IMG/VR virus record: IMGVR_UViG_3300025276_003682
Coordinates: 1-59,988 of that record
Strand: one strand, 5' to 3'
Source of the DNA: a virus
Taxonomy: Duplodnaviria > Caudoviricetes
DNA: 59,988 nucleotides
The position numbers and the translations under genes are program-made. Of the stretch, positions 46,381 to 59,703 are shown one piece after another (within the stretch, counting starts at the first letter, position 1; every line of letters begins with the position of its first letter). The notes beneath the pieces were generated by a model. The model saw nothing but the letters and a program-made list of their open reading frames with translations, searched no databases and was not told the origin of the DNA.

Positions 46381-47172
46381 ATGGCAAAACATGTAGTTGT
46401 AAGTCTTAGTGGGGGAATGGACTCCTCAACATTATTATTAAGAGCATTAAAAGAATACGATACTGTAACTGGTATTTCATTTGACTATGGTCAAAAACAT
46501 AGGGTAGAGTTAGAAAGAGCTCAAGAATTAATTAATTATCTAGCAGATAAAGGTCATAAAGTAAATTATCGCCAAATTAAACTAGACGGATTAGTAGATT
46601 TACTAGACTCAGCTCTAGTAGAAGGTGGAAATGATGTACCAGAAGGACATTACGAAAATGAAAATATGAAAGATACTGTCGTACCTAATAGGAATAAAAT
46701 ATTTGCTTCTATTGTACAAGCTGTAGCATTATCAATAGCAAATAGAGAAGAAGAAACTTGTGATATTGCTTTAGGTATTCATGCTGGTGATCATGCTGTT
46801 TATCCTGATTGTAGACAAGAATTTAGAGATGCAGATGATAAAGCATTTAGAGAAGGTAATTGGGAGGCTGATAGAGTAGGGTACTTTACACCTTACTTAG
46901 ATACAGATAAATTTGGAATCTTACAAGATGGAGAACGATTGGTTAAAAAGTTGGGTCTTAGTTTCGATGAAGTATACAAAAGAACAAATACTTCTTATAA
47001 GCCTTATCCTTCAGGAAATAGTGATTATAAGTCTGCTTCTAGTGTTGAGAGGATTGAGGCTTTTATTGCCCTTGGCCGAAAAGATCCCGTACAGTATGAG
47101 GATGAAACTGGAGAAGTGGATTACGAAGTAGCGAGAAAACACGTTGAGAACGTTTTATCTGCATATTTATAA
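46381..47172 (+). CDS. queC: 7-cyano-7-deazaguanine (preQ0) synthase
   Basis: SLSGGMDS, FDYGQKH..EL, VVPNRN and HAGDHAVYPDCR. Confidence 0.95.
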   Translation: MAKHVVVSLSGGMDSSTLLLRALKEYDTVTGISFDYGQKHRVELERAQELINYLADKGHKVNYRQIKLDGLVDLLDSALVEGGNDVPEGHYENENMKDTVVPNRNKIFASIVQAVALSIANREEETCDIALGIHAGDHAVYPDCRQEFRDADDKAFREGNWEADRVGYFTPYLDTDKFGILQDGERLVKKLGLSFDEVYKRTNTSYKPYPSGNSDYKSASSVERIEAFIALGRKDPVQYEDETGEVDYEVARKHVENVLSAYL

Positions 47173-47200
47173 GCTCATGTTAATTAATTAAAGTAAAAAA

Positions 47201-47347
47201 ATGAGAACTACGAGCGATCAACAAAACGGTCAACCCCACACTAACGGTACCAGAAATACTTTTAATAATAGAGTAAATAGGTACGTTATGTTAGGAAAGA
47301 GTAAAAAAGTTCAATGGGACGGTAAAAGAAGAAACCGTTCTATCTAA
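47201..47347 (+). CDS. Small basic protein (48 aa; not in the ORF track)
   Basis: MRTTSDQQNG...RRNRSI*, downstream of TATTTATA at 47164 with an A-rich leader. Confidence 0.5.
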   Translation: MRTTSDQQNGQPHTNGTRNTFNNRVNRYVMLGKSKKVQWDGKRRNRSI

Positions 47348-47358
47348 AACAATCAGTT

Positions 47359-47958
47359 ATGAAAACTAAACTTGACAGTATCTCTAAGGTAATTTTATTT
47401 GCTATAATGTTATTTTCTTTAATGGCATTTACATCAATATATAAACTAAAAAGAGGTACTGTTAAAGTTAATGTAATTAAACCTGAGAAAGTTAAAGTAA
47501 GTACTACTCTAGATTCACCTATAATACCTAAAATAGTTATCAAAAACCATCAACTGTTTTTAAATGACTTAGGTCACCAAGAATCAGGAAATAGGTACAA
47601 TATAGTTAATAGGTACGGATATATGGGAAGATACCAGTTTGGAAAATCTACTTTAAAAACGTTAAAGATACGAGTAAGTCGGTCTGTATTCTTGAAAGAT
47701 ACAGTTTTGCAGGAACAAGCTATGTTTGCTTTACTTAAACATAATAAAAAACGATTGCAAAAACTTATAAATAAGTTTGATGGGAAAACCGTACACGGAG
47801 TATTAGTTACAGAATCAGGATTATTAGCAGCAGCTCATTTAGGCGGACAAGGAAGTGTTAAAAAGTGGTTTAGATCAGGAAGAGTAAGAAGGGACGGAAA
47901 TGGAGTAAAAATAACTACGTATATGAAAAAATTCGGAGGATATACCCTAAGTTTATAA
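47359..47958 (+). CDS. Lysozyme-fold muramidase/transglycosylase with N-terminal signal or anchor
   Basis: Hydrophobic N-terminus, QESGNRYNIVNRYGYMGRYQFG and LLAAAHLGG.G. Confidence 0.75.
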   Translation: MKTKLDSISKVILFAIMLFSLMAFTSIYKLKRGTVKVNVIKPEKVKVSTTLDSPIIPKIVIKNHQLFLNDLGHQESGNRYNIVNRYGYMGRYQFGKSTLKTLKIRVSRSVFLKDTVLQEQAMFALLKHNKKRLQKLINKFDGKTVHGVLVTESGLLAAAHLGGQGSVKKWFRSGRVRRDGNGVKITTYMKKFGGYTLSL

Positions 47959-47959
47959 A

Positions 47960-48547
47960 ATGAAAAAGAGTACAAAACACCTTATAATAGTAGGCCACCC
48001 TGATCAGAAATCTTTCTGCTATAGTGGCATATACAAAACCATTATTAGACAGATGAATAAGTATAACTCGGAATATAGAGTTATCGACTTGTATGAAGAT
48101 AAATTACATAGAGATAAAAAAGACCTGATAAAAAACTATAAGAAGTTAGTTACTTGGTCAACCCATATGTACTTTGTTTCACCAGTATGGTGGTTCAGGT
48201 TAACACCTAAGTTAGAAATGTTTTTTGACGAAGTATTCACACCTGGATTTGCATATAAATTTGTACCAATAGTAGGAAAGTATGCATACCCAAAACCATT
48301 CTTCAGTAATAAGAAAGTAAGGACGTATATTACACACGGAGCTCCAAAATTACCAGTTATAACACTGTATTTAAACTCTGTAAAGTTAAGACTAGTTATG
48401 GGAGTGTATACATTCGTATTTGGCTGGAACTTAAACAGATGGACTAAGACAAAACAATTCTGGTCAGTACCATTTGTATCAAAAGAAAAACGTAGAAAAT
48501 ACTTAAGAATAGTAAAAGAAGATATTAGAAAAGATTTAGGACTATGA
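47960..48547 (+). CDS. Flavodoxin-fold NAD(P)H-dependent oxidoreductase
   Basis: IIVGHPDQKSF, IDLY and SPVWWF..TP.L..FFDEVFTPGFAY. Confidence 0.85.
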   Translation: MKKSTKHLIIVGHPDQKSFCYSGIYKTIIRQMNKYNSEYRVIDLYEDKLHRDKKDLIKNYKKLVTWSTHMYFVSPVWWFRLTPKLEMFFDEVFTPGFAYKFVPIVGKYAYPKPFFSNKKVRTYITHGAPKLPVITLYLNSVKLRLVMGVYTFVFGWNLNRWTKTKQFWSVPFVSKEKRRKYLRIVKEDIRKDLGL

Positions 48548-48816
48548 AAAAAGTAAAAACTAGCTACTGGAATAACTACTTAAGGAAGATGGTTAGAGAT
48601 AGGAGACTAACACCAGCCGAACGTTTAGGTACAAGAATAGGCTATATGGGAGTAGGATTTTTAATAGCAGGTCAATGGACACTTAACCCAGCTATGTATG
48701 TAATAGGTTTTGGATGTGTCTTAATACAGGTAGCAATTCGTAGACAGTGGAACTTAGTAGCACTACAGTTAAACGGATTAATTGCCTGGACGATACATTT
48801 TATAAATTCGTTATAA
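48544..48816 (+). CDS. Small membrane protein (about 3 TM)
   Basis: Basic N-terminus followed by hydrophobic segments. ATGA overlap with the upstream gene. Confidence 0.6.
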   Translation: MKKVKTSYWNNYLRKMVRDRRLTPAERLGTRIGYMGVGFLIAGQWTLNPAMYVIGFGCVLIQVAIRRQWNLVALQLNGLIAWTIHFINSL

Positions 48817-48880
48817 AAAAAACGTATATTTAGTTGGAGATAAGAAATATTCTGACTATATTATACTATAGGTAATAATT

Positions 48881-48908
48881 AGTGTCGTAGCACCACTTTA
48901 AAAACACA
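48881..48908 (+). ncRNA. preQ1-I riboswitch-like aptamer in the leader of the queD/queE operon
   Basis: AGUG-UCGUAG-CAC-CACU-UUAAAAA-CACA: 4-bp P1 closed by G-C, UCGYAG loop, C before the 3' strand, A-rich tail then C. Lies between a promoter (TATATT at 48857) and the ATG at 48912. Confidence 0.7.
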
Positions 48909-48911
48909 CGT

Positions 48912-49136
48912 ATGCAAGAAGAAATACAAAAAGAGTTATGGAATAGAGAAATTAGAAACTCTATAAAAATCGACGGACAGAAGATACCTGATCCGAAATT
49001 ACATCAAAGAATATCTTTTATTAAATCAGCTATAAGAATGGGAGCATGTGCTTTGGGATTCTTTGGTATGTTTGAAGTTGGATTTATTGGACTATTTTTA
49101 GCAGAAATAGTTGGAATTGGTGAAGAATTAGTTTAA
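48912..49136 (+). CDS. Small membrane protein (74 aa), first gene of the queD/queE operon
   Basis: C-terminal hydrophobic hairpin (ISFIKSAIRMGAC...LAEIVGIGEELV). Confidence 0.65.
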   Translation: MQEEIQKELWNREIRNSIKIDGQKIPDPKLHQRISFIKSAIRMGACALGFFGMFEVGFIGLFLAEIVGIGEELV

Positions 49137-49145
49137 ATTATAATT

Positions 49146-49610
49146 ATGGGAAAATACCAATCAACAAAAGTATTTGACGGATACTCTACTGTATTTCGTC
49201 AATGGAAAGCAACAACTACACATTGTTCTAAACTACACGGATACGGTGTATCGTTTAAGATATGGTTTGAAGGAGAATTAGATGAAAGAAATTGGGTCTG
49301 GGATTTCGGAGGAATGAAAAGAGCTAAAGGGACTATAGAAAAGATGACACCTAAGGCATGGATGGATTATATGTTTGATCATACCTTTTTAGTAGCTGAA
49401 GATGATCCGTTCAAAGAATCTTTTATGCAAATGGACTTAGCAAAAGTAGCCCAAGTAAGAGTAGTTCCGGCAACAGGAGCAGAGAGCTTTGCTAAATTTA
49501 TTTACGAAAGTATAAATCCATTTATTGAATCAGAAACTGACGGAAGAGTTAAGATAGTTAAAGTAGAATTTAGAGAACACGCTAAAAACAGTGCAATTTA
49601 TGTCGCATAA
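49146..49610 (+). CDS. queD: 6-carboxy-5,6,7,8-tetrahydropterin synthase
   Basis: RQW...THCSKLHGY, WVWDFGG, FDHTFL, GAESFA and EFREHAKNSAIY. Confidence 0.9.
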   Translation: MGKYQSTKVFDGYSTVFRQWKATTTHCSKLHGYGVSFKIWFEGELDERNWVWDFGGMKRAKGTIEKMTPKAWMDYMFDHTFLVAEDDPFKESFMQMDLAKVAQVRVVPATGAESFAKFIYESINPFIESETDGRVKIVKVEFREHAKNSAIYVA

Positions 49611-50388
49611 ACAGTTAAAAAGGGTAGAAGACTACGATAAGAATTTACCTATTGTAGAAATATATACAGCAGTGCAGTCTGAAGGTTCAAGAGCAGGGTA
49701 TCCTACAGTGGTAATTAGAACAACAGGATGTACACACAGATGCTACTTCGGTGAAGGAGGATGGTGTGATAGTTGGTATACAAGTATTCATCCGGAAAAG
49801 GGACATTTTAATTTCAAAGATATTATTAAGGCATATGAAGATAATCCTCATATTAAGGAAATGATGTTGACTGGCGGTTCACCAACAATGCATCCAGCCT
49901 TAGTAAACGAACTAACACACTTTGCACATGAAAACAATATATTCATTACTATTGAAACTGAGGGATCTCATTTTCTGCCTACCGATTATCCTATTAATTT
50001 GCTTAGCATTAGTCCTAAGTTTAGTAATAGTGTCCCCGTTGTTGGTGTTGAAACTCCTCAAGGAGCCATTACCGACGAAAGAATGGTAAAACGTCATAAT
50101 AAGTTTAGACTTAATTATGATGCAATAAAACAATCAATTACTTACCATTCTGACTACCATATTAAACCTGTATGGGACGGTAAAGATGAGGGAGCATTAT
50201 CCGAGATTATGGAATGTATTAGTATCTTAGAAGTACCTCAACATAAAGTTTGGTTTATGCCTGCTGGAGATTCTAGAGAAGCACTATTTAAATCTTACCC
50301 CGTATTATTTGATTGGGTTAGAGATAATGGTTATAGAATGACTTGGAGACCGCACATTATTGCTTTCGAAGATCAACGTGAAGTATAG
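49591..50388 (+). CDS. queE: 7-carboxy-7-deazaguanine synthase (radical SAM)
   Basis: EIY..VQSEG...G.P...IRT.GC...C.......CDS, LTGGSP, ITIETEG and SISPK. The start may be the ATG at 49600. Confidence 0.92.
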   Translation: MQFMSHKQLKRVEDYDKNLPIVEIYTAVQSEGSRAGYPTVVIRTTGCTHRCYFGEGGWCDSWYTSIHPEKGHFNFKDIIKAYEDNPHIKEMMLTGGSPTMHPALVNELTHFAHENNIFITIETEGSHFLPTDYPINLLSISPKFSNSVPVVGVETPQGAITDERMVKRHNKFRLNYDAIKQSITYHSDYHIKPVWDGKDEGALSEIMECISILEVPQHKVWFMPAGDSREALFKSYPVLFDWVRDNGYRMTWRPHIIAFEDQREV

Positions 50389-50522: not shown

Positions 50523-50814
50523 CTTAAAAGAATTAATAGAATCAGCAGGTCCGGATAGACTTGACCACACGGTTACTATAGAAGGAAGCCCAGTTTGGGA
50601 CTATAAAATGGGAGGTGTACATACTGTATTTCTCATATCTGAAGACCCTTGGGAGGGTGTAGAAGAAGAGTACGTAACTTTAAGAGAACTGAGAAAGTAC
50701 ATAGTAGACAGCTTCATACCTTTCGATTCAGTAAAATTTAAAACAGAAGCAGATAGAGAATTAATTAAAAGTTTCAAATGGGAAGAAAAGCAATTAGTAT
50801 TATCACATTACTAG
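50515..50814 (+). CDS. Hypothetical protein (99 aa)
   Basis: Clean ORF in the operon. Confidence 0.6.
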   Translation: MINLKELIESAGPDRLDHTVTIEGSPVWDYKMGGVHTVFLISEDPWEGVEEEYVTLRELRKYIVDSFIPFDSVKFKTEADRELIKSFKWEEKQLVLSHY

Positions 50815-51359
50815 TATTATTACCTTTTGCAGGTGTTAGTCAAGTAATAGAAGTAGAAACAAAGATATACAAGGTACTGTACGATCAAGATTTAAAACAA
50901 CCTCTTGAAGTTAGGTACACAGTACAGTGTCCTAAAGGAGATGCTGACAGAGCAGGAATGGATTTTAGAACCGTTCCTAATGTGATCACATCTAGACCAG
51001 AAGACTACTCTAACAATGTATGGGATAAAGGTCATCTTGCTCCTGCAGCAGCATTTAGTTGTACTAAGGAGATGTTAAGAGAAACGTTTCTATACTTTAA
51101 CTGTGCTCTTCAACATGAAAGTTTAAATAGAGGAGTATGGAATAGGTTAGAACAATTCGAAAGAAGTCTAGCTAACTTCTATCAAGTCGAAGTAGTAATA
51201 GAGGTAATATTTGACGACAAGGTCAGAAGAGTTCCTACAGGAGCAGCAATACCTAAAGAATTTACAAAGACTATAAAGTTTGGTGATAAGAATTTAAAAT
51301 TTAGGTTCCCAAACACCAATACATCAGGAACGAATTGGATTGACTACTTAATAGACTAA
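50778..51359 (+). CDS. DNA/RNA non-specific endonuclease (NucA/EndoG-like) with signal peptide
   Basis: N-terminal signal (RKAISIITLLVLLPFAGVSQ), WDKGHLAPAA and N.ALQ...LNRGVW..LE..ER. Confidence 0.85.
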   Translation: MGRKAISIITLLVLLPFAGVSQVIEVETKIYKVLYDQDLKQPLEVRYTVQCPKGDADRAGMDFRTVPNVITSRPEDYSNNVWDKGHLAPAAAFSCTKEMLRETFLYFNCALQHESLNRGVWNRLEQFERSLANFYQVEVVIEVIFDDKVRRVPTGAAIPKEFTKTIKFGDKNLKFRFPNTNTSGTNWIDYLID

Positions 51360-51362
51360 AAA

Positions 51363-51533: not shown

Positions 51534-51535
51534 CA

Positions 51536-51940
51536 ATGGAACCAAAGAAAATTTATATTACCTGGGATGAGGTTAACGAATTACTGGATAGAGTATATGA
51601 TCAATGTAAAGAAGATATATCATTAGTAACAGGTGTACCGAGAGGAGGTACAATATTAGCAATACTATTTTCACATAGATTTGATATACAATATACTCCT
51701 TATATGAGTAATCATTACCCCAATATGCTTATACTAGATGATATAGCAGATTCAGGAAAAACATTCAAAGACTTAGAACAAGACTTTCCTAAACCTAAAT
51801 ACGGAGCATTACATTACAAAATCACTTCGGTATTTGAACCAGACTATTACGCAAAGGAAATAGATAAAGACTTTGGATGGATAGTATACCCTTGGGAGAA
51901 AAAAGATTCAAATACTATTCAAAATTATTTGGAGAATTAA
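51536..51940 (+). CDS. Type I purine phosphoribosyltransferase (Gpt-like)
   Basis: ITW, GVPRGG, LILDDIADSGKT PRPP loop and WIVYPWE. Confidence 0.88.
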   Translation: MEPKKIYITWDEVNELLDRVYDQCKEDISLVTGVPRGGTILAILFSHRFDIQYTPYMSNHYPNMLILDDIADSGKTFKDLEQDFPKPKYGALHYKITSVFEPDYYAKEIDKDFGWIVYPWEKKDSNTIQNYLEN

Positions 51941-52006: not shown

Positions 52007-52720
52007 ATGCCTAAAAAGTTTATAGACGGAACAGAATTAGTAAAAGCAGGATATGCAAACGGTATATCAAGTCAATTAGCAGAGAAGCAAAAAGCAGAAG
52101 GACCTGAAGCTAGATTAACTGAACATGAGAAACAAGTAATTATAGAAAGAGCAGCAAATGCTTATGCAGATTTTCTAACTGCATTAGGATGTAACTATAA
52201 AGACGATCCTAATTCATCTGAGACCCCTCATAGAGTAGCAAAAGCATACGTTAATGATTTATGGGCAGGAAGGTATAACCCTTTAGACCGTATTACAGCA
52301 TTTCCTTCAGACGGATATGACGGTATTGTACAGGAGAGTAATATACCAGTAACGTCTATGTGTTCTCACCATCATCAAGCTATTAGAGGTACAGTAAGTA
52401 TTGCTTATATTGCTTCGGAAGATGGAAAGGTAGTTGGACTATCTAAGCTAAATAGAATAGTAGAGCAATTCGGAAGAAGAGGAGCTATTCAGGAACAACT
52501 TACTGTGGCTATACATAATGCAGTAAATAAGATATGTGAAGGTAATTTAGGAGTTGCAGTACAAGTTAATGCTACTCATGCATGTGTATCCTGTAGAGGA
52601 GTTAAACACGGTGGTGCCTCAATGCAAACAGCAAAACTAACCGGAGCATTTTTACACGAAGATTCTGCAAAAGCAGAATTTTATAAGAATATAGAATTAG
52701 CTTCAATTTGTAAACATTAA
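52007..52720 (+). CDS. folE: GTP cyclohydrolase I
   Basis: ETPHRVAK, SMCSHH, VVGLSKLNRIV, IQEQLT and HACVSCRGV. Confidence 0.95.
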   Translation: MPKKFIDGTELVKAGYANGISSQLAEKQKAEGPEARLTEHEKQVIIERAANAYADFLTALGCNYKDDPNSSETPHRVAKAYVNDLWAGRYNPLDRITAFPSDGYDGIVQESNIPVTSMCSHHHQAIRGTVSIAYIASEDGKVVGLSKLNRIVEQFGRRGAIQEQLTVAIHNAVNKICEGNLGVAVQVNATHACVSCRGVKHGGASMQTAKLTGAFLHEDSAKAEFYKNIELASICKH

Positions 52721-52725: not shown

Positions 52726-53247
52726 ATGGAAGGAAAACAATTATCATTATTCCCTATACTAGATCCTAAAACTGGAAAAGACTATGTACCTTTTGTTAGT
52801 GAAGTAGAAACATTTAACGACACATTTAATAAACCTAATAACTATGAACCTACTATACCGGCTAAGAAAGAATGGCAATTCGTATATGACTTCATACTCG
52901 AAGAACTTGAAGAATATAGAGAAGCTTGCGAAAACGGAGACATTGTGGAAGTTTTGGACGCTTTGTGCGACATTGCTTATGTTTCCCTTGGGAACGGTAC
53001 TATGTTACATGGTCTTAAGGATAAGATATGGCCAGCATATCAAGAGGTACAGGCAAGTAATATGTCAAAAGCTTGCAAAACTGAAGAAGAAGCCATACAT
53101 AGCGTCAGCAAAAGAACTCAGGAACAAGGTGAGGCCTGCCATTTTGAGAAGATTGATGAGGGACGGTATATTGTCTATAGAACACGTGACAGGAAAGTAA
53201 TGAAAAGCATTAATTACTTCAGACCAGACTTAAAGCAATTCTTCTAG
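52726..53247 (+). CDS. All-alpha NTP pyrophosphohydrolase (MazG/HisE-like)
   Basis: EELEEY, EVLDALCDIAYV, EVQASNMSK and KVMKS..YF.PDL. Confidence 0.85.
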   Translation: MEGKQLSLFPILDPKTGKDYVPFVSEVETFNDTFNKPNNYEPTIPAKKEWQFVYDFILEELEEYREACENGDIVEVLDALCDIAYVSLGNGTMLHGLKDKIWPAYQEVQASNMSKACKTEEEAIHSVSKRTQEQGEACHFEKIDEGRYIVYRTRDRKVMKSINYFRPDLKQFF

Positions 53248-53248: not shown

Positions 53249-53434
53249 ATGATTGATTTAACTAAACATAAGATATATGTAGATAGTCATAAAATGGAAA
53301 TGGTGCCTCTATCTATAGCAATTAAAGCAGTTAAAGAAGCAAGTACTCCGGAAGTAGAAAAGTATGCAGAGGAGTTTGAAAAAGCAATGGCAGAATTACG
53401 TAACTCAATAAACGACATAAAATTAGATGATTAA
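53249..53434 (+). CDS. Hypothetical protein (61 aa)
   Basis: Tightly packed ORF in the operon. Confidence 0.6.
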   Translation: MIDLTKHKIYVDSHKMEMVPLSIAIKAVKEASTPEVEKYAEEFEKAMAELRNSINDIKLDD

Positions 53435-54227
53435 AATAGCTCATGAAAGTCCTAAAAGTATTTTTAACGATGTACAACAGTATACAGATTATGATTACGC
53501 ATTAGTACATTTATTAGAAGAAGATGAAGAGTACTTAAACCAGTTTAAAGAAGCAGTCAAAAAAGGTAGGGAAGTTATATTAGATAATTCTATTTTTGAA
53601 TTAGAAGAAGCTTTTGATGCTGATAAATTTGCTTACTGGATTAATGAGCTAAGACCAACTTGGTATATAGTACCTGATGCATTAGAAGATACTAAGAAAA
53701 CTATGAGTCAGATGGCTAGCTGGAATATGCACTATTCAAAATCAGTATACGGTAAAAAGATAGGAGTAGTTCAAGGTAAGACATACAAGCAGATAGCAGC
53801 ATGTTACGAATATATGGATAAAATTGCTAATGTAGACATGGTCGCAATATCTTTTGACTATTCGTATTATACCGATTCTATACCTCATCCTAACAAGTAT
53901 GTTAGCTGGATGCTAGGACGTATTAAGCTACTTGGAGATTTAGTAAGAGACGGTATAATAAATGAAGATAAACCTCATCACCTACTAGGTTGTGGACTAC
54001 CTCAAGAGTTTTCTTACTATTCTCAATACCCTTGGATTTACTCCTTAGATACTAGTAACCCTGTCGTGCATGGCATTAAAGGTATACCATACGGTTCAGA
54101 TGGATTATTCTCAAAAGAAAGACAAAAGCTTCATGAACTCATTAATTTTGAAGTAGAAGATACGAATTTAATTCTAAATAATATTCATAAATTTAAATGG
54201 CTTACAAATGGAAAGAGAGCAGTATAA
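53427..54227 (+). CDS. dpdA: TGT-fold transglycosylase-like protein, divergent DpdA (probably DpdA3-type)
   Basis: TGT-like motif order ILDNSIFE, IVPD, GVVQG, HHLLG, SLDTS, inside the deazaguanine cluster. Confidence 0.72.
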   Translation: MIKIAHESPKSIFNDVQQYTDYDYALVHLLEEDEEYLNQFKEAVKKGREVILDNSIFELEEAFDADKFAYWINELRPTWYIVPDALEDTKKTMSQMASWNMHYSKSVYGKKIGVVQGKTYKQIAACYEYMDKIANVDMVAISFDYSYYTDSIPHPNKYVSWMLGRIKLLGDLVRDGIINEDKPHHLLGCGLPQEFSYYSQYPWIYSLDTSNPVVHGIKGIPYGSDGLFSKERQKLHELINFEVEDTNLILNNIHKFKWLTNGKRAV

Positions 54228-54399
54228 GGTAGGAGATAAAGTAAAATTTAATTTTATTGGCCAAGTAGAAGTCGGGGTTATAGAAACAATAAGCGAAGGT
54301 TATGTGAACTTCTCTAGCTATAATACTAAATACAGCATCAGATGTGGAGCACATTTATATCCAATCTCTTATGAAGGTATAGAACAAATAGTAAAATGA
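54208..54399 (+). CDS. Hypothetical protein (63 aa, SH3/KOW-like)
   Basis: YKVGDKVKF...G.I pattern. Confidence 0.55.
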   Translation: MEREQYKVGDKVKFNFIGQVEVGVIETISEGYVNFSSYNTKYSIRCGAHLYPISYEGIEQIVK

Positions 54400-54938
54400 G
54401 AAAACCCTGGATAGCATTTTTCAGTCAGACCGGTTCCGAAATAGTAGATATAGCTAATGCAATAGGCTATTGGCCTGATGCTATAATAACTAACGAAAGG
54501 CCTTCAAACATTAGGAAGATAAATAATGACTTACTAGAACAGAACCTACTAGCAACAACAATAAATAAACCCTTAGTAGAGGATTATGAAGAAGTTATAG
54601 GGTTTTATAAGGATCCTGTAATAACACTACACGGATGGTTAAGAATTATGCCTCCTTCTATATGTGAAAAATATAGTATATTTAACGGACATCCAGGACT
54701 TATTACGGAATATCCAGAACTAAAAGGTAAGGATCCACAAATGAAAGCTTTTGAAGGTAAGTACCCGGTGATGGGATGTGTTCTTCATAAGGTAGTTGCA
54801 GGAGTTGATGAAGGAAAAGTTCTAGCAGAAGAGAGATTTAATGCTTTCAATATTACTGAAGAAGAGATGTGGAAGGTAACTAGAGATAGATCTCTATTTC
54901 TTTGGGTAAACTTTCTTAAAAAAGCAGTTGGAAAGTAG
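54396..54938 (+). CDS. dpdN: PurN-like formyltransferase, probable preQ1 formyltransferase (DpdN-like)
   Basis: FSQTGS, LHGWLRIMP, FNGHPGL...YP.LKG.DP and GC..H.V..GVDEG.V. The queF/dpdA context supports the DpdN assignment. Confidence 0.75.
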   Translation: MRKPWIAFFSQTGSEIVDIANAIGYWPDAIITNERPSNIRKINNDLLEQNLLATTINKPLVEDYEEVIGFYKDPVITLHGWLRIMPPSICEKYSIFNGHPGLITEYPELKGKDPQMKAFEGKYPVMGCVLHKVVAGVDEGKVLAEERFNAFNITEEEMWKVTRDRSLFLWVNFLKKAVGK

Positions 54939-54984
54939 TTTATAATTTCGTATATTGTATATAAATAATAAAAGGTTATATATT

Positions 54985-55110
54985 ATGAAAAAAGAGAGTA
55001 GTTCATTTCAAAGATTAATGGTATTTTTTTTAGAGCAAAATAGAAAATACGGAGGAAACTTTGGAGTTGCAGGAATGTTTAATACATTAAATAGGTTTTA
55101 TGGTAAATAG
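54985..55110 (+). CDS. Small hypothetical protein (41 aa; not in the ORF track)
   Basis: MKKESSSFQRLMVFF...FYGK*, downstream of the promoter at 54928 and overlapping the next start. Confidence 0.45.
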   Translation: MKKESSSFQRLMVFFLEQNRKYGGNFGVAGMFNTLNRFYGK

Positions 55111-55618
55111 AGTTGCACTAGTTGGAGCAAGTAGTACAGGTAAGACTACTGTTTACGAACTATTAAAAAATAAATTACCTAAATACGACTTTGTTAACGA
55201 ATCTACTAGAACAATAGGCTCTTATGGATTTCCTATCAATGAGAAAGGAACTGATGCTACTCAATTAGCTATTAGTTGTTTTCATTTAGAAGCTTTACTA
55301 CAACCTACCAATCAAGTACTCGATAGATGCTTTATGGATGTTGTAGTATATACAAGATTTATGGATAACGTATCAGAAGAGACGTGGAAATATATAGACG
55401 CTACTTGGAATAGGATTAAAAACGAGTACACCCACTACATTTATTTTCCTATAGAATTTGATTCTGTAGATGATGGAGTAAGAAGTGTCAATGAGCTTTG
55501 GAGAAGAGATATTGATGCTGAATTTAAAGATGTATTAGAAGGTGTAAGTCAACCTTATTTGACGATAACAGGTTCTCCTATGCAAAGAGTAGAGCAAATA
55601 TTAAAATTTATAAAATAA
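55100..55618 (+). CDS. P-loop nucleotide kinase-like protein (NadR/AAA_28-like)
   Basis: GASSTGKTT, LDRCFMD...Y, DDGVR and ITGS...RV. Confidence 0.8.
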   Translation: MVNRVALVGASSTGKTTVYELLKNKLPKYDFVNESTRTIGSYGFPINEKGTDATQLAISCFHLEALLQPTNQVLDRCFMDVVVYTRFMDNVSEETWKYIDATWNRIKNEYTHYIYFPIEFDSVDDGVRSVNELWRRDIDAEFKDVLEGVSQPYLTITGSPMQRVEQILKFIK

Positions 55619-55622
55619 AATT

Positions 55623-56534
55623 ATGGCAAACGTTAAGAATTATCAAGAAGTAGTTGAGATTGCTTCTAAGCATTTAGGAAAAGTTGGAGGAGACGGGTAT
55701 AAGGATACATACTCTCCTGAACTGTTAGTAAAAGTACCAAGGTACTTAAATAGAGAAGGTTACGGACTTACGTCTGATAGTTTTGTAGGGGTAGATACTT
55801 GGAACTGTTATGAAGTATCTGCAATTACTACTAAAGGACTTCCGGTAGCAGGTATGTTGAAAATAGTTTGCCCTTCAGATAGTGAATATCACGTAGAATC
55901 TAAATCTATTAAGTTATACTTGAATTCTTTTAATATGACACGGATAGGAGATAATTCTGCAGACTGTATGGCAGTTATAGAAGCAAGAGTAAAGAGGGAT
56001 TTAGATGAGTTACTAGAAACTAATACTACCGTTTCTTTTTATGCCTGTGAAAGCGAAGGAATTCCTATTTCTTTTGAAGGATATTCCGATCTCGGTGCTA
56101 TAGTAGACTTAGATCAAATAGACTTTACAGCTTTCCAGTCAGATGCAAATCAATTAGCAATAGAAGATAGAGTTGATGAGCCTGTAGAGATTAAGTTAAA
56201 ATCTAACTTACTTAGATCTAACTGTAGGGTAACTAACCAGCCAGATTGGGGAGATGTATTTATCAAAATAAAAGGAAGAGACATACCTGCAGCAGATGCA
56301 CTTGCTAAGTATATTGTTAGTCATAGGACCGTTAGTCATTTTCATGAAGAGATTTGTGAAATGGTATTTAAACATCTAATGGATGCTTATAAGCCGGATC
56401 AATTGATGGTATCTTGTTTATATACTAGAAGAGGTGGATTGGATATTAATCCTATAAGAGCAACCCACCAAAGTTTGATACCGGAATTCTTTACAAACAC
56501 AGATTTTAGAATCGCTAAAACCTTAAGACAGTAG
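55623..56534 (+). CDS. queF: NADPH-dependent preQ0 reductase, bimodular type
   Basis: WNCYEVS, VESKSIKLYLNSF, LLRSNCRVTNQPDWG, FHEEICE and YTRRGGLDINP. Confidence 0.95.
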   Translation: MANVKNYQEVVEIASKHLGKVGGDGYKDTYSPELLVKVPRYLNREGYGLTSDSFVGVDTWNCYEVSAITTKGLPVAGMLKIVCPSDSEYHVESKSIKLYLNSFNMTRIGDNSADCMAVIEARVKRDLDELLETNTTVSFYACESEGIPISFEGYSDLGAIVDLDQIDFTAFQSDANQLAIEDRVDEPVEIKLKSNLLRSNCRVTNQPDWGDVFIKIKGRDIPAADALAKYIVSHRTVSHFHEEICEMVFKHLMDAYKPDQLMVSCLYTRRGGLDINPIRATHQSLIPEFFTNTDFRIAKTLRQ

Positions 56535-56535
56535 T

Positions 56536-56802
56536 ATGGAAAATATAAAATTACAAGAGGAACTCGCTAGTTTAAGATTTGAAGGTAAGTCAGTACTAGA
56601 TGCAACATATTCACTTTTTGATTTCTTAGGACAAAAAGCAGGACCTGAATTAGGAAAAGATGTATATAAGACAGCATTAAGAGAGAAAGAACCAGTGGGT
56701 ATAAGAGAGATAAGTAATAAATCTTATACAGGTAAAGTAATGTTATATAGAAGAGAATTCTTAAAAGAGTATTTTGATGGAAAAAGAAACAGTAGAGTTT
56801 AA
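56536..56802 (+). CDS. Hypothetical protein (88 aa)
   Basis: SLFDFLG.KAG.ELG..V and Y.GKVMLY.REFL.EYF. Starts 1 nt after queF. Confidence 0.65.
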   Translation: MENIKLQEELASLRFEGKSVLDATYSLFDFLGQKAGPELGKDVYKTALREKEPVGIREISNKSYTGKVMLYRREFLKEYFDGKRNSRV

Positions 56803-57034
56803 CGAACTTATAGCAAGAAGAATACCTCCAGGGGATAAATGGGAACTAGTCATCGATAAGAAAAATGTTATCAATGGCTTAGTACCGACCTTAAATCAGT
56901 ATATGCGTAAAACTGAATTTAAAGGGCATTATAGGTTAGAACCTTTGAATAGTAAATTATTTGCTATAAAAACAAAAGAGGTAACTATAGAGGAACCGGA
57001 ACCAGAAAAGTTTGATCTTTATGGAGAATATTAG
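56774..57034 (+). CDS. Hypothetical protein (86 aa)
   Basis: Overlapping operonic ORF. Confidence 0.6.
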   Translation: MMEKETVEFNELIARRIPPGDKWELVIDKKNVINGLVPTLNQYMRKTEFKGHYRLEPLNSKLFAIKTKEVTIEEPEPEKFDLYGEY

Positions 57035-57039
57035 GAGAG

Positions 57040-57063
57040 AAGTTGCTTAATTGCAACTTTTTT
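57040..57063 (+). terminator. Hairpin plus T-tract overlapping a promoter motif
   Basis: aagttgc-ttaatt-gcaactt-tttt. Confidence 0.45.
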
Positions 57064-57095
57064 CTTATATTATATTATATTAAAACGGTTATATT

Positions 57096-57392
57096 ATGTC
57101 AAAAGCAGAAAATCATTACAAAGAATGGCCATTGGAGGAATGTCGACTTTATTTCGATAGATACCTTTCAATGATTAAAAACAAAGACGTAAAAGTTGTA
57201 CGAGAACTCTTAGCAGAAGAGTTCGGTAGGACTAGAAGTTCTATTGGGTTTAAAGAAAGAGAAGTTATCGGAGTATTAACTAACGGCGAAGAAGGGATCT
57301 ACACTTACGGTGAGAACATGATTAAAGCTACTAACGAGGCTTTAGAAAAATCCGGAATGTCAGTTACAAGATTTAAAATTTTATTTGAATAG
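57096..57392 (+). CDS. Hypothetical protein, possibly helix-turn-helix (98 aa)
   Basis: W..EE......LAEEFGRTRSSI pattern. Confidence 0.6.
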   Translation: MSKAENHYKEWPLEECRLYFDRYLSMIKNKDVKVVRELLAEEFGRTRSSIGFKEREVIGVLTNGEEGIYTYGENMIKATNEALEKSGMSVTRFKILFE

Positions 57393-59703
57393 TATGAATA
57401 TAGAAAAGAAATACTACACCGTCCAAGATACTGAGACGCTAAAACTAATGTACCAGCATATTGAAGATTCAGAAGTAATAGCAATAGATACTGAGACAAC
57501 TTCATTGAATATGAGGAAAGGTAAGATTGTGGGGTGGTCTATATCCGGAGCTGAAGGTACAGGTTTTTACCTACCTACTTTAGTTTGGAGTCATGAAGCT
57601 AATGAACTGGTAGTACAGGAAATAAACGGTCAAAGTACGGAGATAATTTCTAAGAACTTGCTTAAGATGTTAAAAGGTAAGAAACTTGTAATGCATAATG
57701 CTTCGTTTGACTGTAGATTTATTAAGAACTACTTTGGAATAGACTTACTAGAAGACTTATGGGTAGAGACTCTTTTACTAGTACATACAGTACAGGAAGA
57801 AGGTGCTGGTATGGGAGTATTCGGACTTAAAGCTCTTGCTATATCAATACAGGAACATATAGGATTAGATGTTGAGAAAGCCGCTAACGAAGAGCAAATA
57901 GAATTAAAAGGTTCTATAAAGAAAAATGGAGGAGAAGCTACTAAAACTAACTTTGAAATTTATAAAGCAGATCTTGATATACTTTCCAAATATGCATCTG
58001 CAGATACAGACTTAACTTTACGTCTATGTAATCACTTCCTAACAAAGCTTAAAGAAGAGAATTTAGAGAAGTTCTTTTTCGAAGATGAAGTAATGCCTAT
58101 ATACAAAGAAGTAACTATTCCTATGGAAAACTACGGAGTAGATTTAGATATGGACTTACTGCAAGAAACTCACGATAATATAGCAAAAGACTTAATAGAG
58201 AATAAGGATATAGTAAAAAAGAGCTTATTAGCAACTTCAGAAGCTAAGAAATGGGTTATGAATACTGCATTCGATAATTTTCCTCCCAACCATAAAGGTA
58301 GTTGGGCACAGAAGCTTGCTGAAAGGTACTCACTATGTCTACCTAAGTCTGAGAAAACAGGTAAGTATTCTCTTACTCAAAAGAATATCGAAGAATTAGA
58401 AGATAGTCCTGCAAAGCAGTTCCTACTAACAGGTGATAATTCAATACTTGAAGAACTAGAAATAGCTCGTATTTCTATGTCGCTATGGAAAGAGAAGAAC
58501 GATGGAGAATATATCAATATACAGTCTAAAAAGCACTTAGGTGAGATTGTATTTAACTACATGGGGATTAAGGCTAAGAGCAAGACAAGAAAAGGTCAAG
58601 CTCAGTTTGATATGGACATGTTAGAATCATTAGCAAAGACGTATGCCTGGGCTGAAAACTTAAGAATATATAATAAGTTACTTAAGATTAAATCTACATA
58701 TGTTGATAGGTTTATAGATAATAGCGAAGACGGTAGATACTATTTTTACTTTAAACAACACGGTACTGTATCAGGCCGTTACGGTTCGGATGCTCAACAG
58801 CTTCCTAAACCTAAAGAAGAAGGAGAAGATGCTCCGATTATTGTTAAGTATACTAATATTGTTAGAGCATTCTTAATTGCTGGAAAAGATAGAAAGGTAA
58901 TAGATTCGGATTATGAATCACTAGAACCTCACTGCTTTGCCTCAGTAACAGGAGATCTAAAATTACAGGAGATATTTAATAATGGCTGGGACTTTTATTC
59001 TACCGTAGCTATACAAACTGAAGAACTAAAAGGAGTATCTCCAGATAAAAAAGCTGACAACTACTTAAAGAAACTAGACCCAGTTAAACGTAATCAAGCT
59101 AAAGCATACTCTTTAGGTATTGCATACGGAATGGAGGCATATGCTTTGGGTATGACTTTGGGAATACCTACTAAAGAAGCAGAAAAATTAGTAGCAGGGT
59201 ATTTAGATGGCTTTCCTGATCTTAAAAAATGGAGAGAAGATTCTAGATTGCAAGTTAAAGCTCATGGGTATATTAAGAACTATGTAGGACGTATTAGACA
59301 CTTACCTAAGGTTACTAAAATCTATGAAAAATTTGGAGAAAGGATAATGGACTGGAGATTTAGAAACCAACTATCAGAACAGTACGGTAAGGACCAGGTA
59401 CTTCAAGTATACAGAGATTACAGAAACGGCTTGAACAACTGCTTAAACTTTCAACTTCAGTCTTTAGCAGCATCTGTAGTGAATAGAGCAGCACTTAAGA
59501 TTAACCGTAAGGCTAAGGAGATGAATATCGATGCAATTGTACAGGCACAGGTTCATGATCAACTTATAATTAATATTAGAGAAGATCAAGCGAAAGACTT
59601 TGCTCCTATAGTACAAGAGATAATGGAGAATAATCTAATACTACCTGGAGTTACGTTAAAAGCACCTCCTGAAATAGCTGATAATTGGAAAGAAGGGCAT
59701 TAA
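57385..59703 (+). CDS. polA: Family A DNA polymerase with 3'-5' exonuclease
   Basis: Exo motifs IDTETT, HNASFD and YASAD. Polymerase motifs GTVSGRY, DSDYESLEP, RNQAKAYSLGIAYG, NFQLQS.AA and QVHDQL. Confidence 0.95.
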   Translation: MNSMNIEKKYYTVQDTETLKLMYQHIEDSEVIAIDTETTSLNMRKGKIVGWSISGAEGTGFYLPTLVWSHEANELVVQEINGQSTEIISKNLLKMLKGKKLVMHNASFDCRFIKNYFGIDLLEDLWVETLLLVHTVQEEGAGMGVFGLKALAISIQEHIGLDVEKAANEEQIELKGSIKKNGGEATKTNFEIYKADLDILSKYASADTDLTLRLCNHFLTKLKEENLEKFFFEDEVMPIYKEVTIPMENYGVDLDMDLLQETHDNIAKDLIENKDIVKKSLLATSEAKKWVMNTAFDNFPPNHKGSWAQKLAERYSLCLPKSEKTGKYSLTQKNIEELEDSPAKQFLLTGDNSILEELEIARISMSLWKEKNDGEYINIQSKKHLGEIVFNYMGIKAKSKTRKGQAQFDMDMLESLAKTYAWAENLRIYNKLLKIKSTYVDRFIDNSEDGRYYFYFKQHGTVSGRYGSDAQQLPKPKEEGEDAPIIVKYTNIVRAFLIAGKDRKVIDSDYESLEPHCFASVTGDLKLQEIFNNGWDFYSTVAIQTEELKGVSPDKKADNYLKKLDPVKRNQAKAYSLGIAYGMEAYALGMTLGIPTKEAEKLVAGYLDGFPDLKKWREDSRLQVKAHGYIKNYVGRIRHLPKVTKIYEKFGERIMDWRFRNQLSEQYGKDQVLQVYRDYRNGLNNCLNFQLQSLAASVVNRAALKINRKAKEMNIDAIVQAQVHDQLIINIREDQAKDFAPIVQEIMENNLILPGVTLKAPPEIADNWKEGH

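What the first reader, a model, noticed from the sequence alone, without database searches (positions are those of the whole stretch)
46381..59703. Complete 7-deazaguanine island predicting formylated preQ1 in DNA, with the parts needed for a pre-replicative route
Seen: folE, queD, queE, queC, queF, a divergent TGT-fold protein and a PurN-like formyltransferase. Established: FolE-QueD-QueE-QueC make preQ0 and QueF reduces it to preQ1. Phage DpdA proteins put such bases into DNA as anti-restriction marks. From memory, a formyltransferase (DpdN) making formyl-preQ1 DNA was reported in a Flavobacterium myovirus. Inference: the co-clustered PRTase, kinase, NTP pyrophosphatase and PolA parallel the logic of Z-genome phages (make the modified dNTP, destroy the canonical one, use a dedicated polymerase). 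That suggests extensive G replacement through the nucleotide pool.
Basis: partly seen in the sequence, partly recalled or inferred. Interest (0 to 1): 0.75.

Follow-up and report, generated by a model that had tools for sequence, protein, structure and literature searches.

The report
Phage gene set for formyl-preQ1 DNA
An uncultured relative of Flavobacterium phage immuto carries the known gene set that replaces every guanine in phage DNA with a formylated 7-deazaguanine, and the nucleotide-handling genes wired into it suggest, but do not prove, that the new base is built on free nucleotides before DNA copying.

Summary
Observation confirmed. All named genes lie at 46381-59703 on the + strand. 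The TGT-like protein has no Pfam hit, but its model (pLDDT 96.9) matches tRNA-guanine transglycosylase at Z 18.4.

[quoted passage not shown] That phage's DNA has all G replaced by fdPreQ1 (PMC10516641). This is a new member of a known system, and the fdPreQ1 prediction is well supported.

The route is open. The paper argues for post-replicative exchange. I find:
- a small P-loop kinase near DpdA3 in 49/49 close, 28/41 distant and 7/8 phiST-like loci, against 0/14 DpdA1 controls;
- DpdL-kinase and DpdA3-DpdN fusions.

This favours a T4-like pool route with DpdA3 acting on a free nucleotide (about 50%). The PRTase is dispensable (43/51), and PolA is the ordinary replicase, not a DpoZ type.

The scan has raised the same idea on at least 10 other genomes.

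The parts
46381..47172 (+). QueC (7-cyano-7-deazaguanine / preQ0 synthase)
   Evidence: PF06508 E 3e-38 and phrog_1550 E 1e-43. TIGR00364 scores 127 bits, below its 150-bit cut-off.
47960..48547 (+). Flavodoxin-like NAD(P)H oxidoreductase. Its link to the pathway is unknown.
   Evidence: PF02525 E 1.4e-19. A tblastn match is found in 7 of the 80 related loci.
49146..49610 (+). QueD (6-carboxytetrahydropterin synthase)
   Evidence: PF01242 E 3e-15 and phrog_2389 E 9e-41. 71% identical to immuto QueD.
49591..50388 (+). QueE (radical-SAM 7-carboxy-7-deazaguanine synthase)
   Evidence: phrog_2076 E 7e-52 and PF04055 E 5e-7. 83% identical to immuto QueE.
50778..51359 (+). DNA/RNA non-specific endonuclease. 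It may degrade host nucleic acid and so supply dNMPs; this is inferred.
   Evidence: PF01223 E 4e-25. Present in 29 of 49 close relatives with at least 5 kb of upstream flank.
51536..51940 (+). Minimal purine-type phosphoribosyltransferase (134 aa). The most likely role is salvage of the guanine released by DpdA3; this is inferred.
   Evidence: phrog_8995 E 1.5e-15, and NF006613 xanthine PRTase E 7e-10, below cut-off. Best PDB matches are purine PRTases 1vdm, 4trb and 4z1o; the PRPP motif LILDDIADSGKT is present. 39% identical to immuto gp60. Present in 43 of 51 close relatives.
52007..52720 (+). FolE (GTP cyclohydrolase I)
   Evidence: PF01227 E 3e-42. 75% identical to immuto FolE.
52726..53247 (+). 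MazG-like all-alpha NTP pyrophosphohydrolase. Proposed to act as a dGTPase producing dGMP; the substrate is inferred.
   Evidence: PF01503 E 2.6e-10 and phrog_671 E 2.6e-28. 74% identical to immuto gp63. Present in 51 of 53 close relatives.
53427..54227 (+). DpdA3-subfamily guanine transglycosylase (TGT fold)
   Evidence: 77.7% identical to immuto DpdA, 42% to the CP220 homologue and 26% to the phiST homologue. Model pLDDT 96.9, matching TGT at Z 18.4. D53, D84 (at least 90% conserved), H185-L-L-G188, E194 and D208 are conserved across 71 sequences.
54396..54938 (+). DpdN (PurN-like preQ1/dPreQ1 formyltransferase)
   Evidence: PF00551 E 1e-7 and TIGR00639 E 5e-10. 53% identical to immuto gp67 (DpdN), at the same position. 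N97, H99 and D138 are invariant in 85 distinct homologues and align to the PurN catalytic motifs. Fused to DpdA3 in P0168 and P0222.
55100..55618 (+). Small P-loop nucleoside/nucleotide kinase (AAA_28 family)
   Evidence: PF13521 E 7e-16 and phrog_2107 E 5e-22. 65% identical to immuto gp68 and 28% to CP220 gp057. The family HMM hits CP220 gp057 at E 9e-49. Walker A, the DR motif and lid arginines are invariant. Present in 49 of 49 close relatives.
55623..56534 (+). QueF (bimodular preQ0 reductase producing preQ1)
   Evidence: PF14819 E 9e-28, PF14489 E 2e-17 and TIGR03138 E 2e-72. Present in 47 of 47 close relatives.
56774..57034 (+). Conserved small ORF of unknown function between QueF and PolA
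   Evidence: 63% identical to immuto gp70. Found in 51 of the 80 related loci. No Pfam hit.
57385..59703 (+). Family A DNA polymerase with 3'-5' exonuclease, the phage replicase
   Evidence: PF00476 E 8e-58 and PF01612 E 4e-14. 70% identical to immuto gp72. DpoZ models score far below their cut-offs. Present in 45 of 45 close relatives.

Best explanation
Identity and product (about 0.85-0.9).
- It carries that phage's DpdA3/DpdN 7-deazaguanine system.
- FolE, QueD, QueE and QueC make preQ0 from GTP, and QueF reduces it to preQ1. This is established chemistry of these families.
- A DpdA3-type transglycosylase swaps preQ1 for guanine.
- The PurN-like DpdN formylates the aminomethyl group.
- The virion DNA is therefore predicted to carry fdPreQ1 in place of essentially all dG, protecting it from restriction.

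Route (inferred, about 0.5). I favour a T4-like nucleotide-pool pathway by a small margin:
1. The MazG-like enzyme cleaves dGTP to dGMP.
2. DpdA3 exchanges the base on the free deoxynucleotide or deoxynucleoside.
3. DpdN formylates it.
4. The AAA_28 kinase rephosphorylates only the finished nucleotide.
5. Host NDK and the phage PolA put it into DNA.
6. The small PRTase returns the released guanine to GMP/GTP, which feeds FolE.

None of the route steps is shown.
For: Identity:
- The order QueD-QueE-PRTase-FolE-MazG-DpdA3-DpdN-kinase-QueF-PolA is shared with immuto, at 39-83% amino-acid identity.
- Immuto DNA contains fdPreQ1 at 345,000 per 10^6 nt, with no dG peak and no dPreQ1 (PMC10516641, Table 1 and text).
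- The DpdA3 model has the TGT fold. Family-invariant D53, D208 and HLLG...E194 sit in TGT-like motifs.
- DpdN keeps N97, H99 and D138 in 85 of 85 distinct homologues.

Route:
- A small P-loop kinase lies beside DpdA3 in immuto, CP220 (plus an HD-AAA_33 protein), phiST (AAA_18 plus MazG) and probably Youna2 (Walker A/DRF ORF).
- Counts for a linked kinase are 49/49 close loci, 28/41 distant loci and 7/8 phiST-like loci, against 0/14 DpdA1 control loci.
- Walker-A small ORFs within 2.5 kb of DpdA3 number 29 in 210 kb. Farther out in the same loci they number 0 in 251 kb.
- Fusions tie the parts together: DpdL-kinase in 3 of 8 phiST-like loci, DpdA3-DpdN, DpdA3-DUF3310 and MazG-DUF3310.
- DpdN (PurN-like) and DpdL (QueD-like) belong to small-molecule enzyme families. 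The DpdN N-terminal TGSE loop aligns with the PurN GSN loop; I recall that loop binding the GAR phosphate.
- Published observations that fit: complete replacement occurs only with DpdA3; no residual dPreQ1 is seen; DpdA3 gave no DNA modification in E. coli; ADG nucleoside was seen in the cytoplasm of CP220-infected cells.
Against: - Every characterised TGT-superfamily enzyme acts on a polynucleotide (tRNA or DNA). None is known to act on a mononucleotide; this is established knowledge, recalled.
- The only paper on DpdA3 concludes that insertion is post-replicative.
- 13 of 41 distant DpdA3 loci have no AAA_28-type kinase within 6 kb.
- A window-type MazG was found by BLAST clustering in only 1 of 41 distant loci. 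Other dNTPase folds were seen, but only in some loci.
- The island sits inside the replication and nucleotide-metabolism module (RNR, thioredoxin, helicase, PolA). Large phages often keep dNMP kinases and MazG genes there for general reasons.
- The close relatives form one clade, so their synteny is not independent evidence.
- No substrate of any of these enzymes was tested.
- The contig is only about 36% complete, and no virion DNA exists for it.
Confidence: 0.5

Rival explanations
1. Published model. DpdA3 is a DNA transglycosylase that exchanges guanine for preQ1 in already replicated phage DNA, and DpdN formylates either the base beforehand or dPreQ1 in DNA. The kinase, MazG and PRTase are general nucleotide-metabolism genes of a large phage, or serve only to salvage released guanine, and PolA is simply the replicase.
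For: - DpdA1, DpdA2 and bDpdA relatives act on DNA, and the authors propose the same for DpdA3 (PMC10516641).
- The DpdA3 model has the TGT fold with the catalytic Asp motifs.
- The island lies in a replication and nucleotide module together with RNR and thioredoxin.
- 13 of 41 distant DpdA3 loci lack a nearby kinase.
- The PRTase fits guanine salvage equally well under this model.
Against: - The model does not explain why kinase and dNTPase genes flank DpdA3 in four lineages with different genome plans but not DpdA1 (0/14).
- It does not explain why the kinase is fused to the tailoring enzyme DpdL.
- Replacing every G after replication, with no residual dG or dPreQ1, demands very high turnover from an enzyme family I recall as slow.
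- DpdA3 failed to modify DNA in E. coli, although that failure may have a trivial cause.
Confidence: 0.38
2. The PRTase couples free preQ1 (or formyl-preQ1) to PRPP, the kinase and the phage RNR convert the ribonucleotide to a dNDP/dNTP, MazG destroys dGTP, and a dedicated PolA incorporates the analogue. This parallels Z-genome phages, and DpdA3 is not needed for bulk replacement.
For: - The PRTase, kinase, MazG, class I RNR (42082-44768), thioredoxin and PolA are all present in the window.
- A PRTase of another type also appears in phiST-like loci (L089, L091) and in one distant locus (L125).
Against: - The PRTase is missing from 8 of 51 close relatives with at least 4 kb of upstream flank, and is present in 8 of 41 distant loci, whereas DpdA3 defines all of them.
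- The route leaves the best-conserved gene without a role.
- The PRTase is a cut-down form. It is about 23 residues shorter than 1vdm between the two aligned blocks; I recall the type I PRTase catalytic loop lying there.
- It keeps the DDIADSGKT motif. I recall the last Asp of that motif contacting purine N7 in HGPRT, and 7-deazaguanines lack N7.
- PolA is not DpoZ-like.
- Polymerase families differ among DpdA3 phages.
Confidence: 0.07
3. The TGT-like protein and the que genes modify tRNA (queuosine supply) rather than DNA, as an auxiliary metabolic module.
For: The fold and the precursor pathway are those of the tRNA queuosine pathway.
Against: - The protein is 78% identical to the immuto DpdA3, and immuto DNA is fully modified.
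- It is 266 aa, against about 350-376 aa for the matched TGT chains.
- It is followed by DpdN, whose product fdPreQ1 has been reported only in DNA; it occurs in a single paper in the library.
Confidence: 0.03

Closest known systems
[quoted passage not shown]
   Same: - Same genes in the same order, from QueD to PolA. Identities: DpdA3 78%, DpdN 53%, kinase 65%, MazG 74%, QueF 63%, PolA 70%.
- Same virus type, a myovirus with a genome of about 160 kb. CheckV rates the 60-kb contig 36% complete.
   Different: - Only 10% of the island's DNA aligns, at 76.6% identity, so this is a different species or genus.
- QueC lies inside the island here, but outside the 24.8-kb immuto stretch examined.
- Extra genes are present here: a flavodoxin-like oxidoreductase, a lysozyme-like protein and a non-specific endonuclease.
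- No chemistry has been measured for this phage.
DpdA3 systems of Campylobacter phage CP220 (dADG) and Cellulophaga phage phiST (dDG)
   Same: - DpdA3 homologues at 42% and 26% identity.
- Complete G replacement is reported for both.
- DpdA3 is flanked by a P-loop kinase and a dNTP phosphohydrolase: HD-AAA_33 and AAA_28 in CP220, MazG and AAA_18 in phiST.
   Different: - Both pathways stop at CDG-derived bases; neither has QueF or DpdN.
- phiST has the decarboxylase DpdL and a Pol III alpha polymerase.
DpdA1/DpdA2 phage systems (phage 9g, CAjan) and bacterial DpdA
   Same: TGT-superfamily base exchange with a preQ0-pathway supply, clustered with replication genes.
   Different: - Replacement is partial, at most about 30%.
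- No small P-loop kinase lies within 2.5 kb in 0 of 14 loci, and there is no AAA_28 HMM hit within 6 kb.
- The three 9g hypothetical proteins scanned show no MazG or kinase domain.
T4 hydroxymethyl-dC pathway (gp56 dCTPase, gp42 dCMP hydroxymethylase, gp1 dNMP kinase) and Z-genome phages (PurZ, MazZ, DatZ, DpoZ). Both are recalled, not taken from a call.
   Same: They work alike if the pool route is right: destroy the canonical dNTP, modify at the monophosphate level, and rephosphorylate with a phage kinase. The gene trio MazG, DpdA3 and kinase maps onto gp56, gp42 and gp1.
   Different: - There is no homology between the modifying enzymes.
- PolA is not a DpoZ.
- No biochemical step has been shown for the deazaguanine case.

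Membership tests
DpdA3 subfamily of DNA guanine transglycosylases | Sequence relationship to the founding members (phiST CGPG_00065, CP220 homologue, immuto DpdA) | tested here: met
   tblastn identities: 77.7% to immuto (E 4e-140), 41-42% to 14 Campylobacter phage records and 26% to 5 Cellulophaga records, each covering at least 83% of the query. Also phrog_19058, E 1e-54.
DpdA3 subfamily of DNA guanine transglycosylases | TGT (beta/alpha)8 fold with catalytic aspartates | tested here: met
   Model pLDDT 96.9. Match to TGT at Z 18.4, rmsd 3.2 A, 236 residues aligned. D53, D208 and H185/L187/G188/E194 are invariant in 71 sequences. KPHHLLGCG aligns to the TGT motif KPHYLMGCG. Assigning the aspartates to the TGT general acid and nucleophile is by motif recall, not by residue-level superposition.
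DpdA3 subfamily of DNA guanine transglycosylases | Exchanges guanine in DNA for a 7-deazaguanine, giving complete replacement | not testable with these tools
   No activity has been shown for any DpdA3; the published attempts in E. coli failed. Whether the substrate is DNA or a free nucleotide is the open question.
DpdN (dPreQ1/preQ1 formyltransferase) | PurN-superfamily protein grouping with immuto YP_010114479 and co-encoded with DpdA and FolE through QueF | tested here: met
   53% identical (E 5e-63) to immuto gp67, at the same position between DpdA3 and the kinase. The full pathway is present in the window.
DpdN (dPreQ1/preQ1 formyltransferase) | Formyltransferase catalytic Asn-His-Asp | tested here: met
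   IFNGHPGL and VDEG align with the ILNIHPSL and VDEG motifs of solved PurN chains. N97, H99 and D138 are invariant in 85 of 85 distinct homologues. The PurN residue numbering is recalled.
DpdN (dPreQ1/preQ1 formyltransferase) | Formylates the aminomethyl group of preQ1 (as base, nucleotide or in DNA) | not testable with these tools
   DpdN activity is only predicted in the literature.
preQ1 biosynthesis (FolE, QueD, QueE, QueC, QueF) | All five enzymes present | tested here: met
   Pfam and PHROG hits for all five. The NCBIfam equivalog scores are below the curated cut-offs, as expected for divergent phage versions.
Z-genome-type pre-replicative system (PurZ, MazZ/DatZ, DpoZ) | Dedicated DpoZ-clade polymerase | tested here: not met
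   NF038380 scores 66.6 bits against a 500-bit cut-off, and NF038381 scores 18.9 against 350. The PolA best matches the generic PolA models.
Z-genome-type pre-replicative system (PurZ, MazZ/DatZ, DpoZ) | dNTPase specific for the canonical nucleotide | not testable with these tools
   A MazG-like all-alpha NTP-PPase is present. Its substrate is unknown.
Type I purine phosphoribosyltransferase | PRPP-binding motif and full catalytic core | tested here: inconclusive
   The PRPP motif LILDDIADSGKT is present and aligns to purine PRTases 1vdm, 4trb and 4z1o. The protein is about 23 residues shorter between the aligned blocks, and the Pfam score of 20.5 bits is below the 26.3-bit cut-off.

The most novel reading that the evidence does not exclude
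DpdA3 may not be a DNA-modifying enzyme. It may be the first TGT-superfamily transglycosylase that works on a free deoxynucleotide or deoxynucleoside. In that case it is the central step of a T4-like pool pathway: dNTPase, then DpdA3, then a tailoring enzyme (DpdN or DpdL), then a dedicated kinase, then the polymerase. Through this pathway immuto-, CP220- and phiST-type phages would write a fifth base in place of G during replication. [quoted passage not shown]
Probability: 0.45. Interest if true: 0.8.

Novelty: new member of a known kind. Interest (0 to 1): 0.5.

Why it matters
The system itself is known, so this contig mainly adds reach.
- DpdA3 homologues number 3180 at E <= 1e-3 in the 5.8-billion-protein set. 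They fall into 1527 clusters at 50% identity.
- I collected 85 distinct DpdN sequences, against the four named in the paper.

The larger point is how a phage replaces every G. The kinase and dNTPase linkage and the gene fusions are not mentioned in the paper's main text or in its one held supplement: 'kinase' occurs 0 times in each.

These observations turn 'post- or pre-replicative?' into a short list of enzyme assays. If the pool route holds, it gives:
- a new substrate class for the TGT fold;
- a compact enzymatic route to 7-substituted 7-deaza-dGTPs.

Tried and rejected
- **Single-sequence fold of DpdA3.** pLDDT was 39.9 and the model was unusable. I repeated it with an alignment.
- **Sequence searches of the PDB with DpdA3 alone or as a profile.** No significant TGT hit.
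- **Overall pI of DpdA3 as a proxy for DNA binding.** The median was 5.5, with 8 of 130 above 7. I ran no control, and I recall tRNA TGTs also being acidic, so I dropped this.
- **Absence of a Zn subdomain as an argument.** Dropped, because the DNA-acting DpdA1 of phage 9g is also short (317 aa) and shows no obvious Cys cluster by eye.
- **DpdA3-kinase fusions.** None among the long forms I scanned in the 150 listed representatives. None among the 120 of 145 listed phiST-type homologues, all 245-279 aa. No longer form of the window kinase was found, which the tool rates as weak evidence. The fusion I did find joins DpdL to the kinase.
- **Complex prediction of DpdA3 with the kinase.** No verdict: score 0.04 against a mark of 0.32.
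- **Crippen et al. 2019 (PMC6854489).** Not held. What I say about CP220 cytoplasmic nucleosides is second-hand from PMC10516641.
- **Earlier-findings look-up by place.** Nothing for this genome.
- **Literature searches for a nucleotide-level DpdA route.** Searches found none. 'fdPreQ1' occurs in only one work, and the only relevant 'DpdA3' hit is the same work.
- **Limit of the Walker-A regex.** It requires GK[ST] and therefore misses phiST-type GKD loops, so the 3/8 for set B is an undercount. The cluster count is 7/8.

Full report
**What is there**

The window is a 59,988-base IMG/VR virus record that CheckV rates 36% complete. Nearly all ORFs of 110 aa or more lie on the + strand; the few on the - strand are short ones nested inside longer + strand ORFs.

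Upstream of the finding are:
- myovirus tail genes (sheath 20922-23084, tube, baseplate hub, fibres);
- a replication module: SSB, UvsX/RecA-like recombinase, 5'-3' exonuclease, DnaB helicase, class I RNR small and large subunits (42082-44768) and thioredoxin.

The finding's interval, 46381-59703, then holds:
- QueC, a lysozyme-like ORF and a flavodoxin-like oxidoreductase;
- QueD, QueE and a non-specific endonuclease;
- a 134-aa PRTase, FolE and a MazG-like NTP pyrophosphatase;
- a 266-aa protein with no Pfam hit, and a PurN-like formyltransferase;
- an AAA_28 P-loop kinase, QueF, small ORFs and PolA.

**The TGT-like protein**

Sequence methods barely see it:
- NCBIfam TIGR00449 gives E 0.006.
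- PDB sequence searches give nothing significant.

Structure prediction is clear:
- A single-sequence fold failed.
- With a 71-sequence alignment the model reaches pLDDT 96.9.
- All 50 top Foldseek PDB hits are tRNA-guanine transglycosylases.
- VIA-align gives Z 18.4 over 236 of 266 residues.

Family-invariant D53 (LDNS), H185-L-L-G188...E194 and D208 (LDTSNP) sit in motifs that resemble the TGT catalytic motifs. Assigning roles to these residues is from recall.

[quoted passage not shown] It is 41-42% identical to homologues in 14 Campylobacter phage records, 26% to 5 Cellulophaga phage records and 24% to Weizmannia phage Youna2. These are the DpdA3 lineages of PMC10516641.

**Relation to the known system**

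The immuto record has the same order: QueD, QueE, PRTase, FolE, NTP pyrophosphohydrolase, DpdA, formyltransferase, 'thymidylate kinase', QueF, PolA.

| Protein | Identity to immuto |
|---|---|
| QueD | 71% |
| QueE | 83% |
| PRTase | 39% |
| FolE | 75% |
| MazG-like | 74% |
| DpdA3 | 78% |
| DpdN | 53% |
| Kinase | 65% |
| QueF | 63% |
| PolA | 70% |

At the DNA level only 10% of the island aligns, at 76.6% identity. This is therefore a distinct phage.

I read passages of the paper. It reports the following:
- Immuto DNA shows no dG peak, carries fdPreQ1 at 345,000 per 10^6 nt and has no dPreQ1.
- The phage resists G-containing restriction sites.
- The PurN-like gene is named DpdN by prediction only.
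- They also state that DpdA3 could not be made to work in E. coli.

The window's DpdN keeps the formyltransferase Asn-His-Asp: N97, H99 and D138 are invariant in 85 of 85 distinct homologues.

The prediction of fdPreQ1 DNA is thus well founded by homology. The finding is a new member of a known kind.

**How common it is**

- DpdA3 homologues number 3180 at E <= 1e-3 in the large protein set.
- They fall into 1527 clusters at 50% identity.
- In IMG/VR, 94 stretches encode close relatives; I kept 80, which contain 59 distinct DpdA3 sequences.

Among these close loci, counting only those with enough flank, the neighbours are conserved as follows:

| Gene | Loci with the gene |
|---|---|
| Kinase | 49/49 |
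| QueF | 47/47 |
| PolA | 45/45 |
| MazG | 51/53 |
| FolE | 50/51 |
| DpdN | 46/50 |
| PRTase | 43/51 |
| QueC (within 10 kb) | 16/33 |

These loci are one clade, so this is shared ancestry rather than independent evidence.

**Test of the pre-replicative idea: reference phages**

I looked at independent lineages and at a control.

- **CP220.** DpdA3 lies between an HD-plus-AAA_33 protein and an AAA_28 kinase. That kinase is 28% identical to the window's. It hits an HMM of the kinase family at E 9e-49.
- **phiST.** The order is FolE, MazG, DpdL, AAA_18 ATPase, DpdA3, then Pol III alpha.
- **Youna2.** A 183-aa ORF with a Walker A loop and a DRF motif directly precedes the DpdA3-like gene, and PolA follows.

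**Test of the pre-replicative idea: IMG/VR counts**

I searched IMG/VR with three queries:
- a profile of distant DpdA3 sequences (583 relatives, 80 kept);
- a phiST-type profile (10 loci);
- as a control, the DpdA1 of phage 9g (17 loci).

A same-strand ORF of 130-260 aa with Walker A in its first 30 residues lies within 2.5 kb of the transglycosylase in:
- 36/41 close loci;
- 28/42 distant loci;
- 3/8 phiST-like loci, where the regex misses their GKD loops;
- 0/14 DpdA1 loci.

In the distant set there are 29 such ORFs in 210 kb near DpdA3 and none in 251 kb farther out.

By BLAST clustering, the 41 distant loci hold, within 2.5 kb:
- QueF in 38;
- the AAA_28 kinase in 28;
- DpdN in 22;
- a PRTase in 8;
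- a window-type MazG in 1.

The phiST-like loci have the AAA_18 kinase family in 7/8.

**Results against a universal link**

- 13 of the 41 distant loci have no AAA_28 kinase within 6 kb.
- dNTP-cleaving genes are of mixed folds: MazG, DCD/dUTPase-like and HD. I saw them only in some loci.

**Fusions**

- In 3 of 8 phiST-like loci (L089, L091, L093) one ORF of 304-322 aa joins a DpdL-like half to an AAA_18 kinase half. The DpdL-like half is 35% identical to phiST gp040 (E 3e-16). The kinase half is 29% identical to gp041 (E 7e-11).
- Two cluster representatives of 447 aa (P0168, P0222) are DpdA3-DpdN fusions.
- DUF3310 is fused to DpdA3 in P0273 and to MazG in L162, and stands free between DpdN and QueF in L101 and L105.
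- I did not find a DpdA3-kinase fusion.

**Reading**

The kinase and a dNTPase are functional parts of DpdA3 systems, not bystanders. DpdL and DpdN belong to families that act on small molecules.

Four published observations fit this:
- complete replacement occurs only with DpdA3;
- no residual dPreQ1 is found;
- DpdA3 failed to modify DNA in E. coli;
- ADG nucleoside was found in infected cells.

Together this makes a T4-like pool route a serious candidate. In that route a dNTPase makes dGMP, or an HD enzyme makes dG. DpdA3 exchanges the base. DpdN formylates it. The kinase rephosphorylates it. Host NDK and PolA then incorporate it.

**The PRTase**

- It is the least conserved part.
- It is a cut-down form.
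- It keeps the DDIADSGKT motif. I recall the last Asp of that motif contacting purine N7, an atom that 7-deazaguanines lack.
- Its simplest role, under either main model, is to salvage released guanine into GMP/GTP, the substrate of FolE.

**PolA**

It is the phage's ordinary replicase:
- it fails the DpoZ models;
- DpdA3 phages use different polymerase families;
- the DpdA1 of 9g also adjoins its polymerase.

**Print status**

- The paper's main text contains 'kinase' 0 times and 'phosphoribosyl' 0 times.
- Its one held supplementary file contains 'kinase' 0 times. Other supplementary files were not held and might list these neighbours.
- Library searches for a nucleotide-level route found nothing.
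- 'fdPreQ1' occurs only in that work.
- Crippen et al. 2019 was not available.

Within this scan the same idea has been noted on at least 10 other genomes. I reached the linkage before reading those notes. I reproduced the linkage, but not the reported DpdA3-kinase fusion.

**Verdict**

- The finding is a new member of a known kind.
- The open and directly testable question is the substrate of DpdA3.
- A complex-prediction job on DpdA3 with the kinase gave no verdict and is not used as evidence.

Noticed in passing
L151:6804-7352 (+); protein P0236: A GNAT acetyltransferase (PF00583, E 1e-4) sits between DpdA3 and the kinase, where DpdN normally lies. In P0236 (419 aa) a DpdA3 is followed by a C-terminal extension that looks GNAT-like by eye but has no Pfam hit. 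This may point to an acetylated preQ1 in DNA, a derivative not among the eight listed in PMC10516641.
   Followed up: partly
L089:5030-5980, L091:5082-5993, L093:3489-4454: DpdL (the QueD-like proposed CDG decarboxylase) is fused to an AAA_18 kinase in 3 of 8 phiST-like IMG/VR loci. In the other four loci that have the pair, the two are separate adjacent genes.
   Followed up: yes
L162:5420-5998; L101:7207-7548; L105:7303-7662; protein P0273: DUF3310 occurs fused to MazG, fused to DpdA3, and free between DpdN and QueF. It appears to be an unrecognised accessory domain of these clusters.
   Followed up: partly
L120:5277-5930 and L130:5320-5946: A Vut_1 family membrane protein (PF02592, E 6e-23) lies directly upstream of DpdA3. 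I recall this family including the YhhQ preQ0/preQ1 importer, so these phages may import the precursor.
   Followed up: no
L121:2428-3003 and 7539-8480; L158 likewise: A 2OG-Fe(II) oxygenase and a TauD-family dioxygenase flank the DpdA3-DpdN-kinase-QueF block. They may carry out further tailoring of the base.
   Followed up: no
L098:9240-9866 and 4 other distant loci (cluster c14): An ORF of about 210 aa follows QueC in clusters that have DpdN and QueF but no nearby kinase. The L098 representative hits GATase_6; the L114 representative has no Pfam hit. It is reminiscent of a split Gat-QueC.
   Followed up: no
window 35857-37182 (+): A second, shorter family A polymerase-like ORF (441 aa; PF00476 E 9e-12, covering only profile positions 99-248) lies between the tail genes and SSB, 20 kb upstream of the full PolA.
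   Followed up: partly
proteins P0255, P0132; L099:7618-8280: GIY-YIG/NUMOD homing-endonuclease modules are joined to, or inserted next to, DpdA3 genes in some relatives.
   Followed up: no
window 50778-51359 (+): A DNA/RNA non-specific endonuclease lies inside the island and is present in 29 of 49 close relatives. It could degrade G-containing host DNA while modified phage DNA is spared, but this is untested.
   Followed up: no
L053, L059, L062, L066 (close relatives): Four of 50 close DpdA3 loci lack DpdN. In all four the kinase match is only 26-32% identical, and in L066 the QueF match is only 36% identical. They look like a variant cluster that may make a different derivative.
   Followed up: no
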